This document shows, one piece after another, positions 682 to 38,614 of a DNA stretch of 64,000 nt; the stretch's first letter is position 1; every line of letters starts with the position of its first letter. The notes below the pieces were generated by a model. It did not search any database. It was given only the letters and a program-made list of their open reading frames with translations, and had not been told where the DNA came from. The translations under genes were made by a program, and so were the position numbers. Where the stretch lies: NCBI GenBank assembly GCA_031835245.2, contig JAVKOQ020000061.1, positions 1 to 64,000 of the forward strand, read 5' to 3'. This stretch comes from Balamuthia mandrillaris (Eukaryota).

Positions 682-719
<38 letters not shown>

Positions 720-2625: not shown

Positions 2626-3074
2626 TTCGTTCTTGTTGTTGTTGCGGTGGAGGCTTGTGGGCCGGTTGCTCTTCGTTGTTTTTATTCTTTTGCCACCATA
2701 ACAATAATGAAAGCAAAAAAAAGTAACTTTCGTGTTTGGAATTTGCTGAGGTCAATGAATTGTCTTGATCAACCCGCAACCCCTTCTCCCATAATCCGCT
2801 AGACATGATTTTGGGGAAATTCGCTTGGGCCGTTTCTGTTCTCTGTGTAATGTTATTAATAATGTTATTTTTGCAGACATATTACACTAATATTAATATA
2901 CTGCTATATATTACGTTGGTCCATCCAAGTGGTAATAATATTAGGGTCGATTAACCTAATATATCTATTATTCATAATAATATGTGAGTAAATAAACGGC
3001 TATTAGGCGATGATTTCTATGAAGTCTATTAGGTTGAACATATATCTCTATATCAACTATAAAAGAAAAGCAAA

Positions 3075-4422
3075 ATGCAAGAGGAGGAAGAAACGATGCT
3101 CACCGCAGAGACCTTCTTTCTGCCCGACGAGATCTTTTTGCAGGTGTTGGAGGGGATCCCTGCAAAGGACCTCCTGGCCTCCGTGTTTCTCGTGTGCAAA
3201 CGGTGGAAGCGTAAAGCGTCCGATGACTCTTTGGTTTGTGTGTTTTTTTTTTTTGTGAGATTTTATTTTTGTTTGTAACCAGAAATTGTTTTTTTTTAAG
3301 TGGAAGTCCAAATGTGCTTTGAGGTGGGGCTCTGATGCGGCCCATGAGGCACAGCACTGTGGCGTCACTGATTGGCTGGCTTACTTTTCTGAAAAGTACT
3401 TTTTTGTTGTTCTCCTCGTTTGCTTTGCTTTGCAGCTTGCTCTCTCTCTCTTCCTCCCTCTCCCTCTCCCTCTCCCTCTCTCCCTCCTCCTCTTTTCTAA
3501 CTTTTCTCTTCTCTTCGTTCGTGTGCTCTCTTTGGTTCATTCTCTTGCCGTCTTGCTGTCTTGCTCTGCTCTCCCTGCTCTCCCTGCTCTCTCTCGGCTC
3601 TCTCTGCTCTCTGCTCTCTTGTTCAAAACATAGAGTTCGATTCGAGGCTTTGCCGCTGTTGCCAGTTACTTACCGCAGCTCCATGAAAGGACCTTACCAG
3701 CCCTATTACTCCAACACTGCTTCCACAGAAGACCTCCTTTCCATCAGGAACTTCTTTGAGGTCGGAGCTTTCTGTTTTCAAGAGGGGCAGCTCGCTGAGG
3801 CAATTCGAGCTTTGGAGGTGGAGGTTGTGCGACATCCTATGAACCATCGAGCTTGGGCCTTGCTTGCCAAAGCTCATATGGAAAACGATTGCGACACACC
3901 GTTCGTTCCTTCTTGTTCTTCTTCTTGTTGTTCTTCTTGTCATAACTTTATGGGTGTTCTTTGTTATCTGCTGCTTTCTACTTTACAATAACGGTTGCTA
4001 ATACCTTTGTTGAACTAGGTCGATTTACTGTGCCTGCACAGCGCTTAGAATAGAACCAAGCAACAGAGACGTTTTGTTGGATTTAGCAGTCAGCTTCATT
4101 AACGAAGTTGAAAGTGGCCATGTTTGTTCTCTCTCACACTCTCCCCCTCCCTCACTACTTTCACTATTAATACTGACGACAACGGAAAAAAACAAAACAC
4201 AAAGGCCAGTTACTTTTTGTCGCAATGGCTGTTATATTCTCCTTACAAAGCCAAGTTGGAGGGCTTTACACAATCCAACGTTTCGATGTTTTCTGAAAAC
4301 GAGTTCGCATCAGCAGGCAATTCACTCTCCGCGTTGAAAAAAGTGTTTTCAGAGATTATCGAGGAGCATCCTGATGACGTTGAAGTTAGAATCACTTTAG
4401 GTTTGGCTTCTCTGCTATTCAT

Positions 4423-4463
<41 letters not shown>

Positions 4464-7023
4464 TTCTCTCTCTTCTCTCTCTCTCTCTCTCGGTTTTCTG
4501 TTCTATTTTCAACATTTCACTTACGGAGACTTGAAAAAAGGCGTGCTGGAAACAGCTTCGTTCGACTTTACAAAAGCAATCCAACATTATGAGCAAGCTC
4601 TTAAAGTGGACCCCACTAACTACGCCTTGTGGAATAAACTTGGTCAGTCTCCTGCATTCTCTTTTAGGTGTTTTTAAACAAGACATCATTCATTAATGCC
4701 ATATTACATTCTATATCAGGAGCAACACGAGCCAACTCTACCCTTGCCCTCCATGCCTGTATGTCCAATCTCTTTCATTTTTCATGATTACCTCTCTAAC
4801 TAATGGAGTTTTACTGAACAATAAGGCCATGCATACCAAGAGGCTCTTCGTTTACGTCCAGGATACGTTCGCTGTTTGGCCAACGTTGGCATCGCCCATC
4901 AATTAATGAACAGTCCTCGGACAGCTGTTGCTTGGTGGACCACTGCTCTCTTGTAAGACCTTTTTCCCCCTCCTTTCTTTTCTTCTTTTTTTTTTCCGTG
5001 TCCTCACTTTCGTTTGTTTACTGCAGGCGCAATCCAAATGCAAGACACATATGGGACTATCTCCGAATGCAATTCTTGGAGGATAACACGGAAACAGCTC
5101 AATTAAAAGAGGCAGTTACACGACAGGACGTTTCTTGGCTGCAAAAACACTTTATTGATGAGGAGACCGAACCTCTTTCCGTCATTCCTCCAAATCACAA
5201 CGAACAAGAAGACAGGCCACCAATATCAACGACTGAATCAACAGTGGACTCTTTTTATCAAGATTGGCTACGAAACATGAATCAAGAGTCGGGGAGTGAG
5301 GATCCTCAAGTAAAAGAAGAAGAAGAAGAAGAAGAAGAAGAAGGAGAAAAAGGAGCACCAGAAGAAATGAAGGAAGAAGAAGCAAAACCACAAGGGCGAT
5401 TGTCATTTGCTGAAGTTATGCGGATGATTCAGGAAGGAAAGACGCCAAGCGATGTTCAGCAGATCGATGATAAGCCGCCAAACCCGAATGCTCCGATTGT
5501 GAAAGGCCAAAGGGCTGCTCCTTTGAAGGTATGTATATGTTTTATTATTTCGTTTTCTCGACGACTTTTCTCTTCCACGAATAACCGAGAATTACTTTCT
5601 TAAATAATAGCCGTGGCAACGTGCTAAGAAAGAAAAAGAAACTACATCAATAGAAAAACAAGCGGTAGCAACACAGCAATTCACCAACAACACTAACAGC
5701 AGTCTTCTTAGCAGTTCAACACTAGCGTCAAACTCTGGTACCAGCAGCAACAGCACGTCAACAGTTGCTTTTAACAACTTGAACCAACAACAAACAGACA
5801 GCACAATCACTTCCAAAGGAATGCCCATATTTACAGTTGACGCTTTCACTTCCAAGGTTCTTTCTTCTTTTTTCTTCTACCCTGTGTTTATTGTTAACTG
5901 CTTATTTCATCATGGTTAGCCTTTTGCAGGAAATCCGGCAGCAGTTTGTCTTCTACCCTTTCCCTCAGCTCTTTCCGAAGCTCTCATGTCAAAGATTGCC
6001 GCCGAAATGAATCTCTCGGAAACAGCTTTCGTTTGTCCTCTTCCTCTAGATCCTCTTTCCTCCACTCCTTCGGCAACAAGTTACAAAACAGCGAAGCGTT
6101 TTGGTCTTCGGTGGTTCACGCCTACCAACGAAGTGGCTTTATGCGGACATGCAACCTTGGCCACCGCACATGTTCTCTTTCATGAAGTTAAAGTTCCGCT
6201 GAACAGCATCACGTTCAGCACTCTTAGTGGAGACCTCATCGTGGAACGCAAACGCGTTGACGAAAGGCAAAAGGAACAAGGAGACTCGGAGGAAGGAACG
6301 ATGATGAGCATGAACTTTCCCCAAGGATTTCCTGAACTGGTGGAAATGCCAGTTGAATCAGTGGTTCTTCCTTTGTTAGGCGCCATGGGTTTACACCTAT
6401 CCGATCTTCTTCCTGTTCCTGCTTCTTCGTCTTTGTCCTCTCTTTCTTCATCTGCATCCTCTCAACTGTTTTCGTTTTGTCAGAAAACGAAAAAGTTGGT
6501 ATTGCACCTCAAGTCAGTTCAGCGGCTGTTAGAAGTGAACCCGGATCAAAAAGCGTTGCTGGCTCTTCGGTTTCCCTCCAATGTTCCTGTTCGCGGTGTT
6601 ATGATTACCACTCTCGGCGGTAACTCTACTCTCTTGTCTTCTTTCCCTTGCTACGAGGGTGAGGAGGCTCTGAGACTAAGAGAAGAAAGCATTGCTGTCT
6701 TTCCAACTTGGGATCGTTACGACTTCATTTCACGGTACTTCTCTCCGTGGAACGGCATTGAAGAGGATCCTGTACTCATTTCTCTCTCACTTCTGTCGTT
6801 GCTTACTTCTGTCTTACGTTTTTTCTGATTTGAAAAGGTAACTGGATCAGCACATACAGTATTGGCTGTTTATTGGAGCGAGCTTTTGGGAAAAGACGAA
6901 CTAAGAGCGTTTCAGGCAAGCAAACGTGGTGGTGAGCTGTTCATCCGGTTGGATCGTAGTAGTGGGCGGGTTAGTTTGGAAGGCACCGCCGTCACAGTGT
7001 TTGGCGGCCGACTTCGTGTTTGA
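3075..7023 (+). CDS. Multidomain fusion: F-box + PEX5-like TPR + KPWE-like domain + PhzF/PBLD-family isomerase
   Basis: F-box LPDEIFLQVL...VCKRWK. PEX5-like TPRs AWALLAKAHMEND, LDLAVSFINE, ALWNKLGATRANS, PGYVRCLANVG, HIWDYLRM. KPWE-like LSFAEVMRMIQEGK...PPNPN...LK|PWQ. PhzF motifs VDAF..PFAGNPAAV, EMNLSETAF, LCGHATLA, EDPVTGSAH. I could join all exons in frame with GT-AG introns; stop TGA at 7021-7023. Confidence 0.8.
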
Positions 7024-7204
7024 ATGAATTCACTTCTTTTCCTTCAACCTCTCTTCTCTCTTTTACTCAATTCCTAACAAACAGACAGTCCGAATGAACA
7101 ATTCAAGTCAACAGAGTACATCACAAAACAGAATACACAACATATTTGAAGTACGTGCACTTTTTTTGCCTTCCTCTTTCCCTTACTGCACCTTTCGTTC
7201 GTTT

Positions 7205-8999
7205 CTAGAAACTGTCTTCACTGGATCTATCGTCTTCCTCAAATGCATCATCACTATCCTTCTCCTTCTCCTTCTCTTCTCCTCCGCTGCTGCTGCCACT
7301 CGTCTTGGTTGACGACAACGAAGTCGACGAAGAGGAAGAGCTCGACGGCAGCTTCTCCACTGATTTTTTCCAAAATCTCCACCCACTGGCCTTCCTCTTG
7401 TGCCCCATAGCAGCCGGTGTCTTGGCTGCCTCCGATGCTCCTCCCCCATTCACCGGCAGCTTCAAGGCCGTCTCCTTGGGTACGGCTTCCTCCCTCTCCA
7501 CCCCCCTCCACACCATGATGACGTTGCCGGCGCTGCCACAGAGCAAGCCGTTGCTGCAGACCTTGATGACTCTAACTCCCTTCTCATTCTCATCCCTCAG
7601 CACGAACTGGGACTTGCCCTCTGCATCCCAGATGTAAACTCCTCTCGAGTCAAAATGACCGCTGCTCACCAACAAGCCTTTCCACACTTTGAGGCAAAAT
7701 ACACCGCTGCGTGGCCCCTCGATGACTCTTAGGCACTCTCCGCTCTCCCTCCACACTCGGATGGTCTTATCGCTGCTGCCGCTATAGAGCTGGTCGCCCC
7801 AGGCCAGCAGGCAGTTGACCTGGCCGGTGTGGCCAGTGAGGATCACGTCTGCGGTGCCTTCCTTCAAGTTCCAGCCACGAATGGAGAAGTCCTTGCTGCC
7901 GCTCCAGAGTTTGCGCTTCCAGCTCTTCAGGCAGAGCACGCCGTTGTCGTGCCCTTCCAAGATCTTTATACATTTGCCCTGTTGGTTCCACACGCGGATG
8001 CGCTCCATCTTTTGCCCGCTGGAGATGAGGTAAGAGCGGGACTTGCCCCGAAGAATCTTCAGGCAGTTGATGGTATCCTCGCTCCCTTCCATCACCATCG
8101 CGCAGGAGAGGTTCTCCCGCCAGCAGCGAATGGTTTTGTCCATCGACCCCGTTACCAGAAAGTTCCCCCAACCTTTGAAAGCAGAGAAACGGATGAGACG
8201 GAAGCATTGCATAAGGAAGACGAACGAGAGCGAGAGAGAGACAGACAGACGAGAGAGAGAGAGAGAGACAGAGAGAGACAGAGAGAGAGAGAGAGACAGA
8301 GAGAGAGAAAAGAAACTGTGGAACGAATAAAGAAAAGAACAGCACCTTTGAGAGCGTAGATTCCAGACTCGTGGCCCAGTAGTTTGCCCTTCTCCAAGAA
8401 ACGCAAACCCCTTGGGCCTCTATCCTCCTCCCACACGATAACGGAGGCGTCATTGCTGCCAGTCCACAGCTTGTTCTTCCAGATGGCCATGCACTTGACC
8501 ACGTTCTTGTGTCCCCTCATCACGCTCGAGTGTGCCTCCTCTCCTGGCCACGAGTCTTCCAACTGTGAAATCTGTGTGTTCGAGAAGCAGGAAGCAAGGT
8601 AGAAGAAATGAAGTGCCCAACCAGTGAACAAACAAGCATTAATGAAAGAGAGAGTCAAAAGTTTGTTACCTCCCAAGCTCGTATTGTGTCATCCCCGCTT
8701 CCACTCAACAGACAGTCTTTCCACACTTTCATGCACTCGACCCATCCGTTTCCGAAATGGCCTCTCAGAACGCCCACCTCCTCCACGTCAAAGTGAGTCA
8801 ACAGCTCTTTGTCCATGGGTTCCTCCTGGGTTGCCTTCCGCGGATGGGCTGTGGCCACGGCACCGGAGGTCAGAGGCCCGACGGAAGCTCGCAGAGGACT
8901 ACGCGCATTTGTAGGAGAGTTGAGCGGGCTTTCGTAGGTGGCCAGTACCTCATTGAAGCTTGTTTTCCGAGAGAGTGAATTTGAAGTGCCACCGTTCAT
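7205..8999 (-). CDS. WD40-repeat protein (myosin heavy chain kinase WD40-like repeats)
   Basis: Repeated GH...SGS.D.TIR.W units (GHFGNG...SGSGDDTIRAW; GHKNVV...TGSNDASVIVW; GHTGQV...SGSSDKTIRVW) across three exons. Confidence 0.88.
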
Positions 9000-9611
9000 T
9001 ATTATAAGGACGAAATAAAAAGAAGTTGCAGTTGTGTTCTTGGTCCAATACAAGTGGTAAAAATAGTAGATAGAAGGCACCGCTTTCTCCCCGAACTTTG
9101 TCTTTGAGAAAGAAAATACACTGCTATAGTGGCTTGAAGAGAGGACTCCGATTTCCCTCCGAAATCCCTCCGGTCCGTTTGGAACACTTCAAGGTCCTTC
9201 CCAGTCTGGCCCACCTCCTCTGCTGCCCGACCGCGCAGCTCTACAAGCAACACAGACCTCCTTCCAAAAAAGAATGGCAAATGCTTTTTTTTTTTTTTGC
9301 TTTGTTTGATAGTGTATATATGCGTGAGACTTGTGGTTTTGTTGTTTGTCCAACAGGTTTTCCCATTTTTGGGGCATTATTCCTTTTATAGATTCTAAAC
9401 GAGGAGTCATTTAAAAATAGCCCTTTAAAAGGCCCATCAGGATGTTCGTGTCGACCCGAAATATTATGTCCGCGTCGACGCGATAAAAATGAATATTCTT
9501 CGATCATGGAATGTTCAACATTCCATTTGTTCATGCGCGTAAACTGTTCATATTGCTTATCTTTGTAGAAAAAGTTTGGTGTTGTTTGTTTGTGTACAAT
9601 GAAGTCCATGG

Positions 9612-12600
9612 TTACTCAGAGGCAGGAGACATCTCCATTCCGTCCTCCTCCCCAAAGTTGACCTTGGTGCTTCTCCTGCTCCTTGCTTCTTTGTTGTATG
9701 CTGGTCACACACCACACCTGTCAGCTGCAATCAAACACACCAAAAGGAAAACAACGCAGAGACATGTCCAGCAGGAATGTTACCTTTGTTTCGTTTCCAA
9801 ATGATAAAGTATCCAACCGCGATGACAACGACCACGATGATGAATGCTGAGGGCACCAGCGCAGCTGCCAATATGGTGACCAGCTCGCTGTCTCCCCCTG
9901 AATCGTTGCCCTCTCCGTCGGTGTCCTCTCCTTCATTTAAGAGAACCGCAAAGTCGGAGAAATGGTTTGTCCGTCCAATCACCATTAGCTCTGTGAACCC
10001 ATCACCCTCCCCCAAAGTCCTGTTAGCCTCATCACTGGAAGAATTGCTGAGAGCATAAAGCTCCAGAGGATCAGGATTGCATTCCCAGCGCCCTGCATCC
10101 TCGTTGATGAAGGCCAAACAAACGTCGTCCAACGAGACACCATCCGGCAAGACAACGGCGAAGATGAGCAGTATGTCGTCTTCAAACGTGGTCACTTTGC
10201 GGAAGGACAGTTCCACCAGGGAAGAATAGACCTTGGAGAGACGAGCGCTGATACGTTCTTCACCTCGGCCCTCGTCAGATGCATCCCCTGAAAGAGGAGA
10301 GCAAGTCGGTAACATTGAAAGAGTAATTCAAAAAAAAAAAAAACAGGTTGAAAGTACGCACATCCCAAGTCACTGCTACTGTCGCCATCGCCAGAGTAGT
10401 CCTTTTCACCAGGAAAGAGGTATTGAAGAACGTCATCAAAGCTTTTGGAGTTAATGCTGAACTCTTCATCCTCAGCAAAGTTAGCTAAAACTTCTGGAGG
10501 TATCTCCACAGACAGCAAAGCATCGAAAGAGGAGTCTCCAGCATCGGTGGCTCGGCTCTCAGGCACCGTGATGACGAATTTTGTGGTTGGCTGTTCGCCG
10601 CCTCTCACGGTCAACGAGAATGATTCAGGAATCCTCAGTGCTGCTGGCTGTTTTGCTGACGATTAACGAGAAGGACGGGCCATTGGATGAGATAGAAATG
10701 TACATACCCTGTAGCAAGTAGTAAGTTGGTCAAAAGGCACACAAAGACCAGTGCCGGGGCATGGAACATGTCCTACAAAACATCTAGTGGCAGCGGTATT
10801 GCATTCTAATGGGCCCTGGGTGCACTTCCCTGTTGGACACTGTTGTAATGTTAATCAAAGGTAACTTGGCATCTCTCTGCAATGAGGTTTGACGCACCTG
10901 GAAGTAGGGACACCCTTGTAATGGTACTGCTTCGCATTCTAACGGGAACCGACACATGCCGTCGGTATTACATAGCTTTAGGCCTGGGGGACACAGTACG
11001 TCAGGAATGGTGCAATTCTCTGCTGGATTTAAGCATCTGCCGTAGCACCTGTTGATACAACAAACGAACGAATGAATAAACGAGAAGAGAAAGAAGATGA
11101 ACAAACAATAACAACAGCAGGGCGGAAGTGATGGAGAGCAAAAATGATACCGTTTCGATCTGGTGATAGGACAAGGGGGAACAGGCTTACAAAACTTAAC
11201 ATGTGAGGCACAAGCTCCATCTGGGCATGTCACAGGCTTCTCGGGTGTATCCAGCTTGCATGTGCTTCCTATCCCACATTCAAAGCTAAACCTGACACAT
11301 GTTCCGCTGCTGCAAGCGAAGCACTTGCCTTCCTTCTTGCACGGATCACTTGTTGGCCCGCAAGCAGGCAGCGTGGTACATTGTGCCAATGAGTCAGCAC
11401 AAGCGCCCGAGGGACAGCGAACAACAGCACAGAGGGGCGGAAGAGTAGGGTCTCCACCCAACTGAGCTTTGCAAGCAGTGCTGCAGAGGTTCTCTTTCAC
11501 TTCAGTCTGCTGGTTTGGTGAGACCACCTTGCAGCGAGGCGAGAGGCTCTCCACGCGGCCACATCGTTGATTCTTGTTTGTGAAAGGAGGAGCTTCATCT
11601 CCAGGTTGCAGCTCGATGGTGATGGGAACGAAACAGGCTATATCTTGAGAACAGGTGTCTCTGTCTGCTCTGTTTGCTACAGGTCGAATTCGGAAGGTTT
11701 GTCAAGTTAGCAAAGCAGAAGATGAAGTTGCACAAGAACAAGAACAAGAGATGAACAAGAACAAGGACGGAGGGAAAAGAGTACGATAGACAACGACGAA
11801 CTAACCAGAAAAGGTTGTGTCCATGATAACGACATCAGGTTCTTCGAGTGGTTCCAAGACATCAAAGTTTGCATCATTTGAGAACTGCGTGAGTCTGGCT
11901 TGTATGAAACTAGGGAAGATCTCCTTCAGCTCATCCGGGAAAGGGATAACGCCAAAAGCCCCTCCCACCCAAGCAAAGTTGTCCTCAAAGATCGAGTCCT
12001 CATTTATCCTTAACCTAGCCATGTCCCCAGACCACGCCAATGCTCCTGTTGTTGTTGTAAGTTAGGCAGAATACAGAAAGAACTGAGATGAAGCGCTCAC
12101 CTGCCAGGCCTTGTCTCGCTCTGTTGCTCTTGAACGTCGAGGAGCTCAACGACAGGGTCCCTGAGCGCCAGGACAACCAAGCCCCTCCTGCTGCCACCTC
12201 TGCCTCATTATTGTTGAACAAGAGGCCGCTCCAGGCAGCATTCAAGTTGCCCGACTCGACCCACAAGCCAGCCGCCACTTTGGCCTTATTGTTGAGAAAG
12301 TCTATATCCGCTAAGTAAACCGACTTTTCCACCTCGATGCGCGTGAGGGAGCCTGTTTCTTCTTCCTCGAACCCTTCCGCTTTTGCCTCTCGTTCCTTGG
12401 CACGTGATGGTCGTTCTTCGTTATTGGGCGGTCGGTGTGCGATGAACACTGAAGCTGCTTCTGCGAGGTTGTCTCTGAAGAGGCAGTTTTCGATGTAGAC
12501 TTGGTCGGAGTCTGGCGTAAACAAGCATATATCAGCACTTAACTTGGTATATAGGAGAGAAGAGCAGAAGAAGCAAATTACCAGTCCACAAGCCAGCGCC

Positions 12601-15228
12601 AGTGTTGCCGCTGTTTCCCACAAACTCGCCATGTTTTACTTCCAAGCGTACAGAAGTTGCTCTGAACGTGTTTTATGTACAACCAAGTTTCAGAGTAAGT
12701 GTTATGCATACCGATAACAATTCGTGTTCACAAACAGTACCTCAATGCGCCTTCCTTCTGTGCAATGTTCTTCTGGAACAAACAGTTCTGAACTGTTATT
12801 GTCAACGGAGCATTGACGAAGAAACCTGATGCAAAGACAGAATGAGAGAGAGACAGGACAAAGCAAAGAAGGAAGCAATAACAAGCGGAGGCTACAAACC
12901 AGATCCGCTTTCAGCCTCGTTGAAAGAGAGAATGGTACTGTTTCCACAGTTCATCTTGAAAGTAGTATAGGCAGGGTTAGGCGAGCCAAGCAGACACACC
13001 CCTCCTCCTGTGCAAGACGAAGAATACAAAGAAAAGGAGGAAAAGTAAGTACAAAGAGAGAACAACCAGAAGACGAACAGGAAGACTTCAATACAAATAA
13101 ACCTGGACCATACCTCGACCGCCAGGTTGGTTGTTGCCGTTGAAGCGAACGGTGGGCGGCTCGAAGTATTGCACGTCTTCCATATGAATACCCGCTCCAT
13201 CGAACACGTTTTCTCTGGCATTGTCCTTAACTTCGCTGTTCCCAAGGAATACCACTGTTGCTGCTCTACGAACTGCCACTCCACCTCCTGTGTTATTGTG
13301 GTGTGGTTTTGTTGTAAAGTTTAAACTCTGGTTAAAAGAGATATCAGAAGTATCTTACCATTTATTCTGGTTCCAGGACTCACAGCTCCATTGCGTTCAA
13401 TGGTGACGTTCTCAAAGGTAAGTTGAGTGCCTATGATGCCTTCAAAGAAAAGGCCTCCACCATGCACCGAGCGGAATCCCACTAACTTGTTTTCCGATAT
13501 GGTGGTCCTGCGAAGGTGTGCGGTTGGCGTTGGAGGATCTATTTCATTTGTACGTTTTGCCTCATCGTTTCTTCGCTCATTGTTGAGCGGAGGAGGAACG
13601 GCAGAGAGATAGATGGCACCGCCTCTGAACGTGGCGACATTCTGTTCGAATGTGCTGTCATTGATGTCCAACTGCAATACTTTGATGGAAAGAAAAATAA
13701 CCATGGAGAATGAGAAAAGAGGATATCAGCGGAGATAGCGTGACAGAAAGAGAAAAGAAAGAGAGAGAGAGAGTTTTAGAGGAAACTATACAATTGTGAA
13801 CTTCAAGAGCTCCACCATCAGCATTATCAGCAGCCACATTCTGTGCAAACGTGCACCACCGTAGATAAACACTCTCAGTTCTTGCCACTGACAGGCCTCC
13901 TCCCTTGTTACCTTCATAAGTGCAACACAAAAAGCATATGTTAAACCACACCTGATGGAGTAAAAAAAGAAGCTGTGACCAACCTGTAATGTCGCAAGAC
14001 AGCAACTCCACATTGCCGATTTTCTCAAAGACAACAGTAGGCACATGACATTTGTTCTCCTCCTCCAGCCCGCTCCCTACCGACAAAGACTCTTCGGAAC
14101 TCTCTGCGCTCTCGCTCTCGTAACCACATTCATTGAACTCAATGTAAGAATCGCTCATCTCAAAGTTTGCAACACCTTCCACGTGAAGAGCGACAGCTCC
14201 GAAGGAGTTATGTTCTTCTCCGCTGTAGCTGATCCGCTTGTTGTTTCGGAAGGTAACGCCGACGAGGCTTGCAACAGTGGAGGAAAACGGAGGGCTCGCT
14301 CTTATAGTGACGCTTTTTGTTGTTGACGGTTGGAGTTAGAAAAGTGGTCGAGAATAGAAAAGGAAAGCGAGAATGTAAGAAAGAACTAACCCAGGGGTGG
14401 TTGAACCTTCATTGCCTGCTACTAGACATTCCTCCATCTGAACGCTGGCTCCAACTGGCGACTGTCTCGTCTCTTTTAGTGGTGGCTCCAGCGGGTCCCA
14501 AGCGAAAGCTTGAAAATTGTTCTGAAAAGTCACCCCCTTCAGCGTTACAGAAGCTGGCGACTGAACAGAGATGGCCTTTGAGCTGTGCTCGTGTAGTGCC
14601 ACGTTCTCAAGGGTGATCTGGGAGGGACCGGCACCAGCTTGCACGGAGATGGCAGTGCGGCAGTTGCTTATGTTGACAGATCCACCGCCTCCACCCTTGA
14701 TCACGAGCCCGTGCCGTTTAGGTATGGAAATAAAGTCACTGTCTGTGTTGTTTTGATAGTTTGTTTAACAACCACAATTTTCTCAGAAAAGAGAAGTAGA
14801 GAATAGAACACAGATAGCTAAGATAAAGAGACAGCCAGAGAGCGAACGAGAGAGAGAGAGAGAGGAAAGATAACAGAATTGGTACCTTTGGAAGCACAAC
14901 GAATGCTAACTGTCTTCCCAGCAGCTTGGAGGGTTATGTCCCCAAGAAACTCAACGGGCGGAGCTACGGTATAGTCAAACACCATATCGTCATCGCTCAG
15001 GTGGAACTCGTAAGCGTCTGGTATCAAGCCAAAGGGGAGTATGAATTGGATGTGGTCAGAGGTGCAGTTGTAGCGCCCTTGCGGTTCCACAACCTCACAA
15101 GCAGAGGAAAACCATTGACTGACGTGCACTTCCACTTGAAGGAAACCCTCAGCGCAAGGGGTACAGAGGAACAACACCAAAGCCAAGCTCAACGGAACAA
15201 ATATGACTATGGTTGGTCCCTTCGTCAT
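9612..15228 (-). CDS. Type I membrane protein, paralog A: Pmp-like beta-helix repeats, Cys-rich repeats, GPS-like motif, single TM
   Basis: Signal peptide MTKGPTIVIFVPLSLALVLFLC. FxxN/GGA motifs (FEQNVATFRGGAIY, FAQNVA...GGALEV). CPSGAC/CPDGAC repeats. WEC...RTNHFSDFAVLL. TM VTILAAALVPSAFIIVVVVIAVGYFII. Stop at 9612-9614. Confidence 0.75.
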
Positions 15229-15899
15229 CCCTTGTTGCCACCGCACGTTCTCCCGCGACAAAACAGAACAAACCCCAAAGTTCGTGCAACAAAAAAAAAA
15301 AAGCAACGTTGTTGGAGGTGCACTGCTGGCCCGGTCTTTCGTTTCAAATCTTTTTGCGATCAGAAAACAAAAAAGAAAGGAAAGTTTAGGGTTCTGTTTT
15401 GTGTCGACGTGTTGCCTTTTTAAGGATTTTTAGATGAAGAGACGCAATCAGGTCGACCTGGTTGGTTTTTACACTGAGAAAGAACAAGAAGAAGCAGAGG
15501 AAGAAGAAGAAGAAGAAGAAGAAGAAGAAGAAGAAGAAGAAGAAGAAAAAGAAGAAGAACAAGAACAAGAACAAGAAGAACAAGAACAAGAACAAGAAGA
15601 AGAAGAAGAAGAAGAAGAACAAGAAGTAACAATAAACTAAGAAGCAGAAGAAGAAGAACAAGAAGAAGAACAACAACAAGAAAATGAACAAGCACAAGAA
15701 TAATAAAACGAAGGACGAGATAATACAACGATGATCATTACAAAAAAGAGAACGAGTACAAAAACCTATGAAGTGCACAGGAAACTCACGCGGAGGATTT
15801 CACCTGCAGAACGTTGTAATTATTCTTCAAAACAGTTAAGAAGGCTCCATAAAATGAAATATGTACCGGGGAGAGAAGCCAAAAATAAAACCACATTCC

Positions 15900-18800
15900 T
15901 TACTCGCTAGAAGAGCGAGAAGACATTTCCATTCCGTCCCGGTCGTCGCCAAAGTTTACCTTTGTGCTCAACCTCTTTTTGACTTGCTTTTTGTAAGCTT
16001 TGAAGAGCAGAACAGGAGTGTTAGCAAACAATAACACATACACAAACAGAAAGCAACATGTAACATTACCTTTGTTTCGCTTGTGAATTCGGATGTAGCC
16101 CACTACAACCACCACGCAAATGATTACAATGGCAGCCGGCACCAAAGTGGCCGCCAAGATGACGATCAGGTCGTCGCTTCCTCCTCCTGAACCGTCCTCG
16201 CCGCCGTCGTTGTCTCCTTCGTTCAACAAAACAGCAAAGTCAGAAAAATGTCGCGTCTTTCCCACCACCATTATCTCCTTGAACCCATCTTCCGCCTCTT
16301 CCGATGAGTCCTCTTCACCGAGCTCTGAGTCTTCTTCTCCTGAAGAGTAGAGCTCGATGGGATCAGGGTTGCATTCCCAACGTCCAGCCTCCTCATTGAT
16401 GAACGCCAAGCAGATATCTTCCAGCGAGACTCCCTTTGGCAGGCGAACGGTGAAGATGAGCAGAATGTCGTCGTTGAACTGGGTCACCTTGCGGAAGGAC
16501 AGTTCCACCAGAGAAGAAAAGACCTTGGAGAGACGCGCGTTGATATCCTCTTGATCCACGCCCTCATCCGATGCTGAAAGAAAGAGGAGAGGATCACATC
16601 AACAACTGAAGAAGGAAGAGCTACGAAAGAAGAACTAAAACAAGAAGAGCAACAAAGCGAGAGCAGAAGGAGGAATGAAGAACGTACAACTAAAGTCACT
16701 GTTGCTGGCAATGAAATCAACTTCCTCCTCACCAGGGAACAAATATTGAAGAACGTCATCAAAGCTTTTGGAGTTAATGCTGAACTCTTCATCCTCATTT
16801 AAGCTGGCCAAGACCTCCGGTGGAATCTCAATGGATAGCAAAGCATCGAAAGCAGAGTCTCCGGCATCGGTGGCTCCGCTCTCAGGCACCGTGATGACGA
16901 ACTTTGCGGTTGGTTGCTCGCTTCCTCTCACGGTCAACGAGAACGATTCAGGAATCCTCAGTGCTGCTGGCTGTTATGTTGTTTTATTGAAGTAATGCAG
17001 GAGGAGGAGTTACGTTTCTGAATAGAATAATAAAAAGAGAAAATAAAAACGAACCCTGAAACAAGAAGCCACCTTGTCCAACGGGACACAAACATCGCTG
17101 CCAGGGCAAGGAAGTTGTCCGGAAGGACATGTGGAGCCTTCATTGCATTGCATTGCTGAATCGGTACACTTTCCCGTTGGGCACTATGTATGTTGTGAGA
17201 TTGTTAAAGAATTATAGCGGCTTATGCCCGCTCAAGTGAGAGAGAGACGTACCTGGAAGCGAGAACATCCTTGAAAGGGTACAGCACCACATTCCACAGC
17301 GGTGCGACACATGCCATCTACGTTACACGGCTTTTGGTTAGGGGGGCATTCAACGTCAGGGAGTGTACAATTCTCTGCCGGAAGTAAGCATCGGCCAAAG
17401 CATCTAGATGGGTTGCAAGAGAAATAGAAGAAGATTAGAAAGGACGACGAGCAGGAAAAACGAGGGCTCTCAAGATAGAGGAATGAAGAGAGGGAGAGAG
17501 AGAGAGAGAGAGAGGAGAAAACCTTCTCGGCTTGCTAATAGGACAAGGTGGAACAGGTTTACAGAGTCTGATATGCGACGCACATGCCCCATCGGGACAC
17601 GTCACAGGTGTCTCAGGTAAACCGGTGCATCCACTGACTGCGCCGCACTCGTAACCAAACCTGACACACGCCCCGCCCTTGCAGGTGAAGCACTTGCCTT
17701 CCTTCTTACACGAGTCTGAGAGGGGGCCACAACCAGAAAGGTCGCTGCATTGTGTCAGAGCAGCAGCACAAGCTCCCGAGGGACATCGAACAGCAGGACA
17801 GAGAGGAGGCAGCGTGGGGTCTCCGCCCAACTGAGCTCGACAGTCATTGCTGCAAGTGTTTTGCTCCGCTGCGATTTCCAAGTTTACAGTGACCACACTA
17901 CAGCGAGGGGAGACGCTCTCCACTCGGTCGCAGCGTTGGTGCTTGTTACTGAGGGTAGGGGCGCCATCTGGAGGGTTGAGGTGGATGGTGATAGGGAGGA
18001 AGCAGGCCACGTCTTGGGAGCAGCTGTCTCGGTCCGCTCTGTTGGCTATATGTAGTTTAGAGAGATTGTTATGAGTGACGTTGTTGTAATGGTGGGTGCT
18101 AACACAAGGAGAGCGTATGCGAAACAAACCAGTAAAAGGGGTGTTAAGTATGATGATTTCAGGCTCTTCCGACGGCTCTACAACATCAAAGTTGGGATCA
18201 TGGGCAAACTGGGTAAACCTTGCTTGAATGAAGCTTGGGTAGACGTCCTGCAGCTCCTCTGGATCAGGAAAAACGCCCATTGCTCCTCCCACCGATGCAA
18301 AGTTGTCCTTAAACTCCGAGTTGAGGATTCTCAGCCTTGCGTGGTCACCGGAAACCGCCAATGCGCCTTTGGTGATGTGTTTCGTGTGTTTTGGAGGTGT
18401 CATGAGGAAGGGAAGACGATGAAGAAGAAAGAAGAAACGTAAGCACAAGTAGAGCAAGAAGCAGTCCTGTAGAAAATACACCAGAAACTCTTACCTGCAA
18501 CGCCTTGTCTCGCTTGGTTATTGAAAAAGGACACGGAATCCAACCACACCATGCCAAACTCCCAATGCAACCAAGCTCCTCCTGCCGCCACCTCCGCTTC
18601 ATTGTTCTTGAAGATGAGGTCACTCCATTCCATGTCTACGTGGCCAGAGTGGACCCACAAGCCAGCTGCCACCATGGCCTTGTTTTCGATGAAAAGAAGC
18701 TCGGAGAGGTTGAGACTTCTCACGATGTCTAGGCTTTTAAAGACTACAGCTTCATTCACCTCCTCCCTCACCTCCTTTGTTGAACGTACTTTGGATGGTT

Positions 18801-21366
18801 TCACAGTTCCTCCATCCTCACTCTCAGAGCTGTGGGTGCTGGAAAAGTCAGAAGAGGAGGAAGAAGAGGACGAGTCGTTCGTATCGTTGGTGTATGGCTC
18901 CTGAATGAAGAGCGCTCCCACTCTACCTTGGTTATATTTGAATTCGCAGTTGTTTAGAGTGACTTGATGCGAGTCTGTATATCAGATACAATCAATTGAG
19001 AGAGCTGAGCAGATTTGAAGACGAAAGGAAGAGAAGGGAGAGAAATGGAACAACAGAATACCTGTATTCACGCCGCTGCCATGCCTACCAATATTCTGAA
19101 GAAAGTTGCAATGCAGGATAGTCAAAGCTCGTGAAGTTGCGCTACAGGAGCAAAACATAATATCGAGTCATCTCTTAGTGCTTACTCTTCTGTTAAAAAA
19201 AAAAAAGCAAGAGTAAAAACGCTTACGTCAAAGCGCCTGATTCTGAGGCAATGTTCTGTTTGAAGGAGCACCTCTGAATCGTCACGTCCAACAAAGCAGA
19301 GACGTAGAAACCTGAGCCATCGCTAGCTTCATTCGAAATAAGAGACGTGGTGTCATTGCAATCCATCAAGAATGAAGTGTAGGCTTGAGTCGACCCGACT
19401 CCTCCCAGATATATTCCTCCACCTTATTTGGCACAAGAAAGAAAGAGTAGAAGAAGAAGAAGAAGAAGAAGAAGAAGAAGAAGAAGAAGAAGAAGAAGAA
19501 GAAGAAGAAGAAGAAGAAGAAGAAGAAGAACAAGAACAAGAACAAGAACAAGAACAAGAACAAGAACAAGAACAAGAACAAGAACAAGAACAAGAACAAG
19601 AACAAGAACAAGAAGAGGAACAAGCAGAAGAGCGAAGACGAACAAGATGAAGGTGAGGATGAAAAGTCAAGAAGACCTGCAATAAGGGAAATACAAGCGG
19701 GAGATATAAATACCCAGGGTGTAAGCCTTGTTGTTGCCATTGAGTGTAATCTCAGGCGCTATAAGGTGCCCAACATCCTCCAGAAACATGCCTGCACCAA
19801 GAAATACGTTTCCTTTGGCGTTTTCTCTAACCTGGCTTTGCAAGAATTCCACATAGGCAGCCCTTGCTATGTAAGCACCTCCACCTTATTTTGTTTATGT
19901 TGTTGTTAGTTTGATTGCTGGTTGTTTTTGTTTTTGTGCTTTGAAGCCAGGTACCATACACCAAGGCGTTCTCGTGCAAGGCTCCATTGTGCTGGATGGT
20001 AACCTCATCAAAATACAACTCGCTGTCCACGTTGCCACGGACAAACAGCCCTGCGCCATGTGCGGACTCGAATCTCACTTTGTTGCCAGAGATGGTGGTC
20101 TCAGCAATGGTGGCAGTCAGCGGAGCGGTAGCGCTTCTTGTGCCATCATTCTCTTCACCAATAAGAGACAGCCCGCCTCCTCTGTACGGTGCGATATTGT
20201 CGGTGAATCTGCACCCCTTGATATCCGCCAACACCGCTTCACAAAGTTCAACATAAGAAGAGCGATGCAGCCAAAGGATAGGAGATAAGGTGGCGTACAT
20301 CGGTGGAATTGTAAAGCACCGCCTTCCTGAGGGTAAGCAGCTTCATTTCCAAAGAAGTCACAATCTCTCAAGAAAAGACTGTCCGCTCTTAAAACAGATA
20401 TGCCTCCTCCCTTATTGTCTTCAGCGGAGATGAATAAGACAAAGAATAGAGAACAGAAGGAGAGAAAGGGCGTGGAGATGAGCAAGCACAAAAGCAACAT
20501 ACGTTGAATAATGCACGACCGAATCTCCACGTTTGTTGTATCAGCAAAGACACTCGTTCGTGTAAAACAGTTCCTCTCATCGTCATCTGGCCCAACTGAT
20601 GATCCATCCTCGTCCTCTTCCTCTTTCCTCCACTCACAGTGATTGCTCTCGATGCGACATTCAGTCTCAGAGCGGCTCATCTCAAAGTTGGCAGCGCCTT
20701 GCACCAAAAGAGCGATGGCCCCATTGGAGTCCTCGTCATTGGGATGCTTGCGGAGCCGTCTGTTGTTGCGCAAGACGATGTCGGTGATGCTCACCACTGG
20801 GGGTAAGGACGAAGCCCTTATTGTAATGCTTTGTTTTGTGTGTTGTTTTGCAGTTATTATACAAATGAAACAAAAGAAGATAGGAAGACCAAACGAACAA
20901 GGAGGAGAAGAAGGAGAAGAACAACAAAAAGGAGACTAACCCTGGTGTCCGATATCCTTCGTTTTCCTCTACTATACATCTGTTCAGCACAATGCTGGGT
21001 ACCTGTTGTCTCTCCATTGCTCCTGCTGCTGCTGCTTCTTCGTTCTCTGAAGGTGAGGATCGTCGACTCCGGGAAGGTGACTCCCACACCATCGCCTGAC
21101 TGTTGTTCCGAAGCGTCACGTCGGACATAGAGAGCGAAGCGGGCGCTTGGATAAAGACAGCTGCCCCTTGGTGTCCCGTCATGTCCAAGTTTTCAAGCGT
21201 GACCTTGGCGTCACCGGCGTCGTTTTGCACGAACACGCCATAGCGACAGTTGGAAATGGTGAGTCGGTTAACCTCGGTGCCTTGGATAAGAAGGTCCGTT
21301 GGTTGGAACAACTCGAGAAAGTCCATCCCTGAAGAAGACATGTTAGCTTGCTTAAAGCCAAAACTC

Positions 21367-21411
<45 letters not shown>

Positions 21412-21769
21412 TACCTTGGTAAGTACATCGAAGGGTAACAGGTTCCGTTGTGAGTCGAATGGAAAGCTTGTTGCCTGTAAAGGCCACAGGCGGTACCACC
21501 GTCTCGTCTATCACCAGGTCTCCCCCGCGTTTCAACAAAAAGTGATAGGCATTGGGGAGTTGGTCGTTGATGGTGAAGAACTCAAAGAACGTGGAGTAAC
21601 AGATGTAGTAGGCGGCTGAAACCGCTTCGCAGCCTTCTTTCGTGAGGGTCTTCTCGATGTTGACTTGTACCTCAAAGCCCTTCGCCAAAGCTACGGGCAG
21701 CAGAGCCAAGCAGAAGAAGAGGAACAACAGGGTTGCTGTTAACCCACCCAATGGTTTACTTTCGTTCAT
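15900..21769 (-). CDS. Type I membrane protein, paralog B (tandem duplicate of 9612-15228)
   Basis: Signal peptide MNESKPLGGLTATLLFLFFCLALL. Same domain order: FTDNIAPYRGGGL, CRAQLGGDPTLPPLC, WECNPDP...KTRHFSDFAVLL, TM, tail STKVNFG. Confidence 0.75.
19447..19620. repeat. Compound microsatellite (GAA)n-(GAACAA)n in an intron of paralog B
   Basis: Directly visible; similar arrays at about 750-895, 15480-15670 and 36018-36125. Confidence 0.95.
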
Positions 21770-22225: not shown

Positions 22226-24436
22226 TTACAAACGTGAACCGCGGACGGTGGTGGCGGTCGTCGAAGTTCTACTGTACAAGTAAAAGTGGATGTGAAATAA
22301 GGAGAGGAGGCATAACACCACGAACAGGGAGCGGTCTTGAGAGTACACCACGATGACGGCGTAGACGAGGCAAGAAAGGACCACCAGCACCCTTTTGTGA
22401 AGAAAGCAGAAAGAAGAGAGAGAAAGAAAGAAGAAAGAGAGGAAAAAAAAAGCCCAAACGAAGGAACGAAGGGACGAAGAGAGAGGAAAACAGTTAGGCA
22501 AAACAAGAAGATAAAACCGCAAGAAAAAGCAGAAAAAATGAAGAGGCACAAGAAGAAGAAGCACGAGAACAACAGAAGAAAACGAAGCAAAACAAGAATA
22601 AGCACGTTATTAAGACGAAGAATCAGAATAAGCATAAGAGAAAAAGCAAGAGAACCATCCAGTATGAAGTCTCTCCGGAAGAACGGAGAAAGGAAGACTC
22701 AAGAACGGCCGTTGGTTGTTTCTCGCCCTAATAATACCAACCGAAGGGAGCATAGAACATCTCGCCTCTTCCCCTTCTTCGCTTCTTCTGTTTCGACGAA
22801 GTTGGTCCTTCAAGAAGTTGATCCTTTGTTGAATGCGATTCTTCTCCGTTTCGAACTCTTCGATCTCCTTTTCCAGTTCTTCTAACACTGTTTTCGCTTC
22901 TAAAGCGTTTTGTTCGGTTTGCTCTGTCTCCTTTTCTTCCCCCTTTACATGTTGACGCGATGGGCTTATATTTACACGAATCGCTTCCCCCTCCTCATCC
23001 TCTTCATATCCTTCTTCTCCTTCCTCATCGTCTTGTTGTTGAAGCAAACGCTCCTCGTTGTTCTCATCACGCGTGTCGTTCCGGAAGAATGAGGAAGAAT
23101 TTCTTCTCGTTCCTGAGGATGACGATGATGAGGTCAACAGCCAATCGTACGATGCAATTTGCATCCGAAGATCTGAAGTGAATGGAACACACAATAAGAA
23201 TAAATAACGTGAACAACAAGGGAAAGAAAGAAGAAACAGAAGACGAAAAAAAAAACGAGAAGCAGAAGAAGAACAAGAAGAAGAAGAAAGGTCGTAACCT
23301 TCCAAAGTATCAAGAAAATGAGTATCATGAGAGAGATCTGCCCGAGATGCGGCCGGTTTTGAGGTTGTCCACTTTCTTCGCTTCCGCTTCACCTTTCTGG
23401 GAGAGAATATATCCTTCCTCGCTGTCTCTTCTTCTTTCCTTTTGCCTCCATTCTCATCTCCCTCTTGCTTATCTTGTTCACCATTTCCATCTCCTTCTCT
23501 TTCTTCTCCTTCCTCTTCCTCCTCCTCCTCTTCGTCTTCTTCCACTGGTTGCAACCCGCTCATCTCCAAGGACGTCTCCATTTGTTCCTGCAACGAAACC
23601 ATTTGCGTCGTCTCCGTCTCTATCTCTTGCACCAACTCGTTGACGTAACGCTCCAAGGCTTCCTTCTCGTTTTGAAGCGAGTCGATCGTCCGGTCCTTCT
23701 CCTCGCAGCGAAAAGAGAGCTCCATGATCTCTTCGGTCAGCTTGGACTTCTCTGAGTTCAGCCTTCGATTGGTCTCTTTCTCTCTTCGCAGAGAGCCTTT
23801 GCAGCGTTCTAACTCTTGTTTGAGCTTTGTAATGGTATTTTCTTCTTCCTTTAGTTGTTTTTAAGAAATAAGAGAAAAGAATTAAAAAAAGACATCAAAA
23901 AAAAAAAGAAAAAAACAGAAAAAAAAAGAAAAAAAAAGAAAAAAAAAGAAAAAAGAAAAAAGAAAAAAGAAAAAAGAAAAAAGAAAAAGAAAAGAATTAA
24001 GAAAACGAAATTATAAAATAACATAAATTCATACCTGAGAAGAAGCAGCAACCTCCAGAGACCTTCTGGAAATATTGAAGCTTCTCCGTCGGAAGCTTCC
24101 ACCAGCAGAGCCGCTTTTCTTGGTTTTGTTATTGTGGTGACCCTCTCCTCCCCCAAACTCAAAAGAAGCTGAAGACTCGTCGTCGGAGCTAAAGCCGTTG
24201 TGCTGGGCTCGCAGGCGGTCGTAGTGCCGCAGCTTGGTGGCCCAGCTTCGTCCGTACCACTCCTGGGTGTTGTTCCATTCGCGGCTCAGCTGCTCCAACT
24301 CGCTCTCCCATTCCGCCTTTAGGGAGCTGAAACTGGACCTTCTCTCTTCTGAAGAAGAAGAGGAGGAGCCTTCGGCCGAAGGTGGCACGATGGAACTCGT
24401 TGTCATTGGTGCAGGAACCTCTTGATCGAGGCTCAT
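22226..24436 (-). CDS. Coiled-coil protein with C-terminal hydrophobic membrane anchor, function unknown
   Basis: Heptad-like E/L/K-rich exons (DSLQNEKEALERYVNELVQEIE; LEELEKEIEEFETEKNRIQQRINFLKDQL). Last exon WVLVVLSCLVYAVIVV...LFVVLCLLSLF. Confidence 0.6.
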
Positions 24437-24565
24437 GTTTGGTTTTTAAGGTGTGTAGAAGAATGAAACAGAAAAAAAATACAAGTTCGTTCACCTGCGT
24501 AATGCTTTATGTAATGCTTTTTTTTTTATTATTTTTCGGTCTTTTCTTTTGTTTTGCTCCTAAAA

Positions 24566-28739: not shown

Positions 28740-38242
<9,503 letters not shown>

Positions 38243-38351
38243 CTTAGTTTTTCTTTCTTTCCCTTTTCTCTTCCCTTCTTTTACGTGAGCAAGAATAGGG
38301 AGGGAAAAGCCCTAATTTTTTTGCACAAGGTCGATTTTGGCGGGAAAAACA

Positions 38352-38470: not shown

Positions 38471-38614
38471 AGAATTACCGGGAAACGGGAACACATCTCG
38501 TAGAACTGCATTGTCGGAGACACTTTGGACAATGGAGAGTGATGGATTTGCACTCGCCTACTCCTCCTGTGACTTAACCTCACCAGCAGCAGAACGGAGG
38601 AGGAAGGGAAGAAA

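What the first reader, a model, noticed from the sequence alone, without database searches (positions are those of the whole stretch)
9612..21769. Tandem pair of beta-helix surface proteins with a GPS autoproteolysis-like site but a single TM
Seen in both copies: signal peptide; many FxxN...GGA(I/L) repeats; CPxGxC-rich stalk; WEC...T(N/R)HFSDFAVLL a short acidic linker before one TM. Known: FxxN/GGA(I/L/V) repeats mark Chlamydia Pmp adhesin-type beta-helices, and H-(L/F)-(S/T)-x-F-A-V-L is the GPS cleavage motif of adhesion GPCRs and polycystin-1. Inference: self-cleaving, sheddable adhesins or mechanosensors with no 7TM domain, possibly for prey or host contact.
Basis: partly seen in the sequence, partly recalled or inferred. 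Interest (0 to 1): 0.7.

Follow-up and report, generated by a model that had tools for sequence, protein, structure and literature searches.

The report
Amoeba break-away surface proteins, GAIN-B anchored
Two neighbouring genes of the amoeba Balamuthia encode large surface proteins whose predicted beta-helix head is tied to a single membrane helix through a domain predicted to have the self-cleaving fold of animal adhesion receptors, which would likely let the head break away when pulled.

Summary
Two intron-rich paralogues (1440 and 1416 aa) match NCBI Balamuthia mandrillaris gene models letter for letter, and RNA reads confirm two junctions of one. Each has a signal peptide, beta-helix repeats, a 36-cysteine stalk, a ~210-residue domain ending in HF/SDFAVLL, an acidic linker, one TM helix and a short tail. 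An alignment-based model of the domain (pLDDT 79.5) matches GAIN subdomain B and ZU5 equally (Z 9.9 vs 9.6), with HF/S on the known scissile bond of latrophilin-1 and NLRP1. It is not a full GAIN domain: no helical subdomain A and no canonical GPS cysteines. The closest working analogue is the prokaryotic GAIN-B-only MAIN domain (bioRxiv 2026), which self-cleaves at HF/S. 37 relatives share the module; 36 end in one TM, and all 6 with a taxon name are amoebozoans. Best reading: a self-cleaved, clasped break-away tether for a swappable head. Cleavage, ligand and shedding are untested; the Pmp-like motifs are degenerate and do not prove adhesion. This scan already noted similar single-pass GAIN-B proteins in Naegleria. 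New variant of a known kind.

The parts
15900..21769 (-). Gene A, 16 exons, 1440-aa type I membrane protein (identical to NCBI QOT17_008096)
   Evidence: RNA reads and two exact splice junctions
9612..15228 (-). Gene B, 17 exons, 1416-aa paralogue (identical to NCBI QOT17_008095), 51% identical to A over the global alignment
   Evidence: sparse exonic RNA reads, no listed junction
21683..21769 (-). A: likely signal peptide, aa 1-29
   Evidence: hydropathy; cleavage point by eye
18275..21278 (-). A: predicted right-handed beta-helix head, about aa 136-830, with degenerate FxxN/GGx repeats and acidic or Ser-rich loops
   Evidence: PF13229 E 1.8e-25; repeat count; coordinates
17061..18022 (-). 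A: cysteine-rich stalk, aa 887-1144, 36 Cys, 3 CPxGxC
   Evidence: no significant Pfam or PDB sequence match
16224..16970 (-). A: GAIN-B/ZU5/MAIN-type beta-sandwich, aa 1147-1357 (exons 14-15)
   Evidence: model pLDDT 79.5; fold searches; profile hit to ADGRG6
16242..16250 (-). A: His1349-Phe1350/Ser1351, predicted scissile bond
   Evidence: Phe aligns with latrophilin-1 L837 and NLRP1 F1212
16092..16169 (-). A: single TM helix, aa 1376-1401, after an 18-residue acidic Gly-rich linker
15900..16091 (-). A: 39-aa cytoplasmic tail with a VNF motif, interrupted by the last intron
15148..15228 (-). B: likely signal peptide, about aa 1-27
   Evidence: hydropathy
11951..14704 (-). B: predicted beta-helix head, about aa 128-806
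   Evidence: PF13229 E 1.3e-15
10714..11653 (-). B: cysteine-rich stalk, aa 863-1122, 36 Cys
9938..10647 (-). B: GAIN-B/ZU5/MAIN-type domain, aa 1125-1336, 78% identical to that of A (not folded separately)
9956..9964 (-). B: His1328-Phe1329/Ser1330, predicted scissile bond
9803..9880 (-). B: single TM helix, aa 1356-1381
9612..9802 (-). B: 35-aa cytoplasmic tail with a VNF motif, interrupted by the last intron

Best explanation
These are single-pass surface proteins in which a predicted beta-helix head and a cysteine-rich stalk are tied to the membrane through a predicted stand-alone GAIN-B/ZU5-type domain that likely cleaves itself at His-Phe/Ser, would stay clasped on its last strand, and would likely let the head break away under pull. 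Shown: gene structure, domain order, one TM, short tail, transcription of A. Predicted: the fold and the register of HF/S. Inferred from homologues: His1349, held by Phe1298, activates Ser1351; an N-to-O acyl shift and hydrolysis give a ~143 kDa ectodomain held non-covalently on a 90-residue (9.6 kDa) membrane stub. Inferred, least certain: the head binds a surface, prey or matrix ligand, and force releases it, so the module works as a detachment or shedding fuse rather than as a G-protein switch. My odds: fold 0.93, cleavage 0.7, break-away role 0.5.
For: Model pLDDT 79.5, pTM 0.77 from 41 sequences. Against 48,161 chains, 17 of the top 20 rows are titled GAIN, ZU5, FIIND or Nup98 entries (CELSR1 Z 9.9, rmsd 4.2, 148 aligned; CD97 9.7, 2.6, 128; ankyrin-B 9.6, 3.3, 127), the other 3 are axonemal chains of unstated family, and unrelated folds start at Z 5.4. 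Model Phe204 is the last aligned residue against latrophilin-1 L837 (H836-L837/T838) and NLRP1 1212 (Ser1213 nucleophile). By sequence alone the family profile hits ADGRG6 (E 1.1e-4) over the whole subdomain B, and ADGRG6 itself has HF/T. The Phe that stacks on the catalytic His (latrophilin F803) aligns with A Phe1298 and is F or Y in 30 of 36 relatives. 35 of 37 relatives keep H-[FL]-[ST]. GAIN-B-only MAIN domains cleave at HF/S in isolation and stay associated; 3 of 39 proteins scanned weakly hit the MAIN-bearing end of the YfkN-like NCBIfam model. The linker is 18-19 residues against 5-6 in adhesion GPCRs, there is no 7TM, and heads differ among relatives.
Against: No cleavage was observed. 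ADGRB2 keeps a canonical HLS triad yet does not cleave, and the Gly-Cys motif tied to cleavage competence is absent here and in 36 of 36 relatives. Latrophilin-1 needs subdomain A to cleave. Among the equally good structural matches are ankyrin ZU5 domains, which are scaffolds (recalled). Cleaved GAIN strands normally stay bound, and force release of MAIN domains is itself only proposed. A and B have no Pfam GPS or ZU5 hit and the A allele has no NCBIfam MAIN-region hit. No ligand or adhesion evidence exists for the head. AlphaFold was trained on GAIN and ZU5 structures.
Confidence: 0.55

Rival explanations
1. The domain has the GAIN-B/ZU5 fold but is not cleaved; it is a folding or spacer module at the base of an ordinary adhesin.
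For: No Gly-Cys motif and no subdomain A; ADGRB2 is a precedent for an intact triad without cleavage; 2 of 37 relatives lack the His.
Against: Triad and stacking aromatic are conserved across a family with only 18-48% identity to A; MAIN domains cleave without subdomain A.
Confidence: 0.2
2. A force-gated receptor: loss of the ectodomain exposes the stub, which signals by intramembrane proteolysis, by tail partners, or in trans through a separate 7TM protein.
For: The post-cleavage strand matches the tethered-agonist consensus TxFxxLM; a 1TM Cirl isoform works with a 7TM partner in Drosophila; a V[NH]F tail motif occurs in A, B and 6 of 36 relatives against 0.17 expected (chosen after seeing A and B, relatedness not controlled, one case abuts the TM).
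Against: No 7TM; tails are short (median 29 aa) and mostly unconserved; the linker is long, acidic and Gly-rich; amoebozoan family 2 GPCRs lack GAIN domains and no partner was identified.
Confidence: 0.13
3. The beta-helix head is a polysaccharide-binding or -degrading enzyme, displayed and then shed to work on prey or cyst walls.
For: Many MAIN proteins carry glycoside hydrolases and lectins; weak Pfam hints in single exons (PF12708 E 0.059, PF14262 E 0.083).
Against: No significant match to any solved enzyme; the hints are below cut-off; the head was not folded here.
Confidence: 0.12

Closest known systems
MAIN domains of bacteria and archaea (Brogan and Rudner, bioRxiv 10.64898/2026.05.12.724683; B. 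subtilis YfkN)
   Same: GAIN-B-only fold, HF/S triad, order signal peptide - adhesion or enzyme domains - domain - surface anchor, large size, no signalling unit; weak profile link through 3 relatives.
   Different: Eukaryotic, intron-rich, anchored by one TM with a cytoplasmic tail rather than mostly by sortase, wall-binding or S-layer anchors; likely hairpin disulfide and Cys-rich stalk. That paper removed eukaryotic hits and has no mention of amoebae or protists.
GAIN domain of adhesion GPCRs (latrophilin-1, CD97, BAI3, ADGRG6, CELSR1)
   Same: Subdomain B fold (Z 7.3-9.9), cleavage register, stacking Phe, xxFAVL last strand, position just before a TM.
   Different: No helical subdomain A, no four-Cys GPS pattern, no Gly-Cys, longer linker, one TM instead of seven.
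ZU5 / FIIND / Nup98 autoproteolytic domains (PIDD, CARD8, NLRP1, ankyrin, UNC5b)
   Same: Fold match tied with GAIN-B (ankyrin-B Z 9.6); HF/S is the PIDD and Nup98 site; relative P0015 hits both Pfam ZU5 (1.4e-7) and GPS (1.6e-3).
   Different: Those examples are intracellular and mostly followed by UPA and death-fold domains; here the domain is extracellular and followed by a TM.
Polycystin-1 / REJ proteins
   Same: Non-GPCR membrane proteins with a juxtamembrane GAIN and self-cleavage.
   Different: No REJ, PKD or PLAT hit, no subdomain A, one TM.
Chlamydia Pmp autotransporters
   Same: Beta-helix coils with FxxN and GGx motifs; PF02415 passes its cut-off in 1 of 27 exon pieces.
   Different: Strict core pattern once per protein; no Pmp middle domain or beta-barrel hit; type I membrane protein.
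Naegleria single-pass GAIN-B proteins
   Same: Stripped GAIN-B plus one TM in an amoeba.
   Different: NHL propeller, EGF or REJ heads there; beta-helix head and Amoebozoa here. Relationship not tested.

Membership tests
GAIN-B/ZU5/Nup98/MAIN autoproteolytic fold superfamily | Beta-sandwich fold of GAIN-B/ZU5 type | tested here: met
   Model pLDDT 79.5; Z 9.9-9.2 to GAIN-B and 9.6-8.3 to ZU5; Foldseek E 4e-4 CD97, 9e-4 ankyrin ZU5
GAIN-B/ZU5/Nup98/MAIN autoproteolytic fold superfamily | H-x-[ST] triad in the turn before the last strand | tested here: met
   HF/S; Phe aligns to latrophilin-1 L837 and NLRP1 1212, Ser to Nup145 994
GAIN-B/ZU5/Nup98/MAIN autoproteolytic fold superfamily | Self-cleavage with fragments staying associated | not testable with these tools
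   needs protein biochemistry
GAIN domain (adhesion GPCR / PKD1 type) | Helical subdomain A of 2-6 helices N-terminal to B | tested here: not met
   The 150 residues before the domain are 15-16% Cys with CPxGxC repeats and the sandwich starts at model residue 5-8; the stalk has only a low-confidence model
GAIN domain (adhesion GPCR / PKD1 type) | GPS motif with four conserved Cys and Gly-Cys | tested here: not met
   Two Cys only, in other positions, covarying as a pair (28 both, 6 neither, 0 mixed of 34); WxxxGC in 0 of 36 relatives and Thr, not Cys, at His-2 in 32 of 36; no PF01825 hit
GAIN domain (adhesion GPCR / PKD1 type) | Aromatic residue stacking on the catalytic His | tested here: met
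   By sequence alignment to the CxFW Phe of ADGRG6 and ADGRG3; geometry not measured, model coordinates not available
Adhesion GPCR | Seven-TM domain after GAIN | tested here: not met
   One TM then a 35-39 aa tail and stop; last junction of A confirmed by RNA
Polycystin-1 / REJ family | REJ, PKD, PLAT domains, multi-pass body | tested here: not met
   No such Pfam hit at E up to 10; single TM
MAIN domain proteins | GAIN-B only, HX[ST], between ectodomain and surface anchor | tested here: met
   against the description
MAIN domain proteins | Sequence homology to YfkN MAIN | tested here: inconclusive
   3 of 39 proteins hit NF006937 positions 1264-1350 of 1411 at E 1.7e-4 to 0.015; the A domain and its allele did not; equating this model with YfkN rests on its description and my recall
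MAIN domain proteins | Bacterial or archaeal protein | tested here: not met
   Spliceosomal introns; Amoebozoa
Chlamydia Pmp adhesins | Multiple GGA(I/L/V)-x14-18-FxxN repeats | tested here: not met
   1 strict core per protein
Chlamydia Pmp adhesins | C-terminal autotransporter beta-barrel | tested here: not met
Chlamydia Pmp adhesins | Adhesion to cells | not testable with these tools
   needs a binding assay

The most novel reading that the evidence does not exclude
Amoebozoa use a widespread, database-invisible cassette (Cys-rich or mucin stalk, stand-alone self-cleaving GAIN-B, one TM) as a force-set fuse under interchangeable heads; it is the eukaryotic survivor of the prokaryotic MAIN design and a living model of the pre-GPCR state from which adhesion GPCRs arose by adding subdomain A and a 7TM, and in Balamuthia it sheds large surface proteins during crawling, feeding or host contact.
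Probability: 0.3. Interest if true: 0.75.

Novelty: new variant of a known kind. Interest (0 to 1): 0.52.

Why it matters
Recent reviews list only adhesion GPCRs and PKD1-like or egg-jelly receptors as eukaryotic GAIN carriers, and the 2026 MAIN paper covers prokaryotes only, although GAIN domains in Dictyostelium and ciliates were noted in 2012. A family of single-pass, subdomain-B-only proteins in amoebae fills the gap between the two and gives a minimal 210-residue construct to ask what GAIN cleavage does without a GPCR, and whether it can work without subdomain A or the Gly-Cys motif. Pfam misses the domain in both proteins and in 36 of 37 relatives, so these surface proteins are annotated as hypothetical. 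For Balamuthia, an amoeba that causes encephalitis (recalled), a shed 140 kDa ectodomain would be a candidate diagnostic antigen.

Tried and rejected
Single-sequence fold of the 454-aa allele was poor (pLDDT 43.7) and its fold searches gave only generic Ig-like rows: no information. Single-sequence searches of Pfam and PDB found no GPS, GAIN or ZU5. Word-indexed homologue searches found only Balamuthia alleles; the third was run on an unsuitable length range (2483-5000 aa) and found nothing. DNA scans found no relatives in metagenome, viral or prokaryote contigs or plasmids; these are insensitive, so no conclusion on absence. Viral structure library: nothing at E 0.001 or better. Atlas hits were leads only (ZU5 0.88; GPS 0.79, DUF1191 0.75). 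No whole genome was held, so no genome-wide family count; at least two further Balamuthia loci carry the domain. No RNA run was listed as an indexed holder; runs X5 and X6 gave next to no reads. I dropped the argument that the domain is the most constrained part: it is 78% identical between paralogues against 45% for the head, but dN/dS is similar throughout (0.20-0.31) and silent divergence is lower in exon 14 (21 of 76 codons, p 0.0014), which points to partial gene conversion. Rejected: membership in adhesion GPCRs, polycystins and Pmps. The head was not folded and no complex was predicted. Liao et al. 2014 (PMC4258472) was not held; the main supplement of Arac 2012 was too large to read and the MAIN preprint's supplements were not seen; all three may already list amoebozoan single-pass members.
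Full report
Gene structure. The window is eukaryotic DNA. Reading the minus strand gave two tandem genes, A (21769-15900, 16 exons, 1440 aa) and B (15228-9612, 17 exons, 1416 aa), with 31 of 31 introns GT..AG and open reading frames. All 15 introns of A have a same-phase counterpart in B, so this is an old tandem duplication (749 identities in 1480 columns). The models are letter-for-letter identical to two NCBI 'hypothetical proteins' of Balamuthia mandrillaris (Amoebozoa); alleles at 92-96% identity lie on other contigs. In RNA run X4, 56 reads covered 26 of 30 bins of the 3.6 kb of A tested, and two junctions matched my introns exactly (72 and 69 nt). Gene B had sparse exonic reads and no junction above the listing threshold.

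Anatomy. Each protein has an N-terminal hydrophobic stretch, a Pfam beta-helix region (E 1.8e-25 and 1.3e-15), a stalk with 36 Cys, a ~210-residue domain ending in HF/SDFAVLL, an 18-19 residue acidic Gly-rich linker, one TM and a 35-39 residue tail. The GPS-like motif occurs only in these two genes in the window and never twice in 200 shuffles. The beta-helix repeats are real (14 and 13 relaxed repeats against about 0.2 by shuffle) but the strict Pmp core occurs once per protein. A structural study of Pmps finds these motifs point into the helix core and are not Chlamydia-specific (PMC11166332, passages), so they do not show adhesion.

Family. A profile of the two exon-15 products against 1.84 billion representatives returned 38 proteins at E up to 0.001: one allele of A and 37 others. 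All 37 carry the motif: HFT 27, HLT 5, HFS 3, TFS 2; 36 end in exactly one TM a median 28 residues after the site, with a median 29-residue tail; the exception, P0015, has five tandem copies and no TM. Caveats: the profile included the TM, and many hits are fragments. Of 20 looked up, 6 carry a taxon: Synstelium, Tieghemostelium, Physarum, Clastostelium and two more Balamuthia loci (that the first four are Amoebozoa is recalled); 14 are unnamed environmental proteins. Of 9 relatives long enough to judge, 6 have a Cys-rich and 2 a Ser/Thr/Pro-rich stretch directly before the domain; heads include propeller plus EGF, Kelch and mucin-like regions. Pfam recognises the domain in 1 of 37 (P0015: ZU5 1.4e-7, GPS 1.6e-3). 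A profile built from 36 relatives scores A and B at 78 and 76 bits, reversed controls at 1.2 or less (not fully independent, since the relatives were found with A and B).

Fold. With a 41-sequence alignment the domain of A folded at pLDDT 79.5, pTM 0.77. Foldseek ranked CD97 GAIN (4e-4) and ankyrin ZU5 (9e-4) first. In the unbiased search of 48,161 chains, 17 of the top 20 rows are GAIN, ZU5, FIIND or Nup98 entries, GAIN-B and ZU5 are tied (9.9 against 9.6), three rows are axonemal chains of unstated family, and unrelated folds begin at Z 5.4. The register is right: against cleaved chains the alignment ends at model Phe204, opposite latrophilin-1 L837 (site H836-L837/T838, PMC3321182 passages) and NLRP1 1212 (Ser1213 is the nucleophile, PMC3210808 passages), and Ser205 meets Nup145 residue 994, the residue mutated in that entry. 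Independently of AlphaFold, the family profile hits ADGRG6 at E 1.1e-4 from the first to the last strand, and ADGRG3 at 0.005.

What it is not. The GAIN domain is defined as helical subdomain A plus B (PMC11697300 passages). Here the Cys-rich stalk abuts the sandwich; the four-Cys GPS pattern (PMC13197933 section V) is replaced by one covarying Cys pair (28 both, 6 neither of 34; relatedness not controlled), and the Gly-Cys motif is missing in 36 of 36 relatives. There is no 7TM, REJ or autotransporter barrel. GAIN-B, ZU5 and Nup98 are known to form one superfamily (PMC3482391 section 8; PMC9539791 passages citing Liao 2014; Liao itself not seen).

Will it cleave? For: intact HF/S; the His-stacking Phe (bioRxiv 10.1101/2023.03.12.532270, passages) aligns with Phe1298 and is F or Y in 30 of 36 relatives; prokaryotic GAIN-B-only MAIN domains cleave at HF/S as isolated domains and stay associated (bioRxiv 10.64898/2026.05.12.724683, parts 1-4 of 7 read), and 3 of 39 proteins weakly hit the C-terminal end of the YfkN-like model. 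Against: ADGRB2 has a perfect triad and does not cleave, latrophilin-1 needs subdomain A, and the Gly-Cys is absent. I put cleavage at about 0.7.

Mechanism. Most likely the protein self-cleaves during biosynthesis, reaches the surface as a ~143 kDa ectodomain clasped on a 9.6 kDa stub (unglycosylated masses), and parts when the bound head is pulled. With no 7TM, a long flexible linker and a short tail, I favour a break-away or shedding role over signalling; a V[NH]F tail motif shared with 6 of 36 relatives keeps a signalling or trafficking role open. The ligand and the role in prey or host contact are unknown.

Novelty. GAIN domains outside GPCRs in Dictyostelium and Tetrahymena were reported in 2012 and are assumed in recent work (PMC12716839 passages; PMC10445921 passages). 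I found no paper on this single-pass subdomain-B-only amoebozoan family or on GAIN in Balamuthia (0 papers; nothing relevant in the listings), but the library lacks most subscription journals and I could not see Liao 2014 or the relevant supplements. This scan has earlier, unchecked notes on similar single-pass GAIN-B proteins in Naegleria and other protists; one of them led me to the MAIN preprint. Verdict: a real feature and a new variant of a known kind, with the beta-helix head as the locus-specific element. Interest 0.52.

Noticed in passing
protein P0015 (JGI/IMG): 831-aa protein with five tandem copies of this domain, each with an intact H-[FL]-T triad and no TM, behind an N-terminus that looks dockerin-like by eye; hits Pfam ZU5 and GPS and the YfkN-like model, so it bridges the families. 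Origin unknown; no relative found in prokaryote genomes.
   Followed up: partly
window 22600-24440 (-) and protein P0006: In an allelic contig the NCBI model QOT17_020882 joins the upstream coiled-coil gene directly to a gene B allele with no gene A sequence between: either that haplotype lacks gene A or the predictor skipped it.
   Followed up: no
window 16688-16970 and 10362-10647: Exon 14 of A and B has lower silent divergence than the other exons, with identical runs of 30 and 54 nt, suggesting partial gene conversion.
   Followed up: partly
window 15900-16000 and 9612-9700: Tail motif V[NH]F shared by A, B and 6 of 36 relatives; in A and B it reads KVNF, resembling a PP1-docking RVxF motif (recalled, untested).
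   Followed up: partly
A aa 205-208; B aa 1027-1030: One furin-type RxxR site in each ectodomain at different places: possible second processing site.
   Followed up: no
window 44378-46159 (+): One 594-aa open frame holds an aminotransferase class V domain followed by a Maf-like domain: a possible fusion or two close genes.
   Followed up: no
window 38000-43630 (+): Tyrosine-kinase-like domain at 42705-43632 behind several kb of unannotated frames; may be a receptor kinase.
   Followed up: no
window 1-9200 and 24790-54340: Unrelated housekeeping neighbours: PH-domain gene, KPWE-domain gene with F-box/TPR-like stretches (by eye), PhzF-like, WD40, EF-hand-like (by eye), GST, DNA polymerase epsilon, alcohol dehydrogenase, prenyltransferase. 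No functional cluster with A and B.
   Followed up: partly
fold search rows 8glv_AE, 9fqr_Hn, 9y6s_9f: Three axonemal doublet-microtubule chains match the domain at Z 7.2-9.4, suggesting a ZU5-like fold in a ciliary protein; identity not checked.
   Followed up: no
BFVD entry A0A5Q2W8E7: A 175-aa unnamed viral protein matches the model at E 1.7e-3, possibly a viral ZU5/MAIN-like domain.
   Followed up: no
protein P0034 (KYR02658): Tieghemostelium protein annotated as phosphatidylinositol 3-kinase 2 is a mucin plus Cys-rich plus GAIN-B single-pass protein with no kinase hit: probable mis-annotation.
   Followed up: partly
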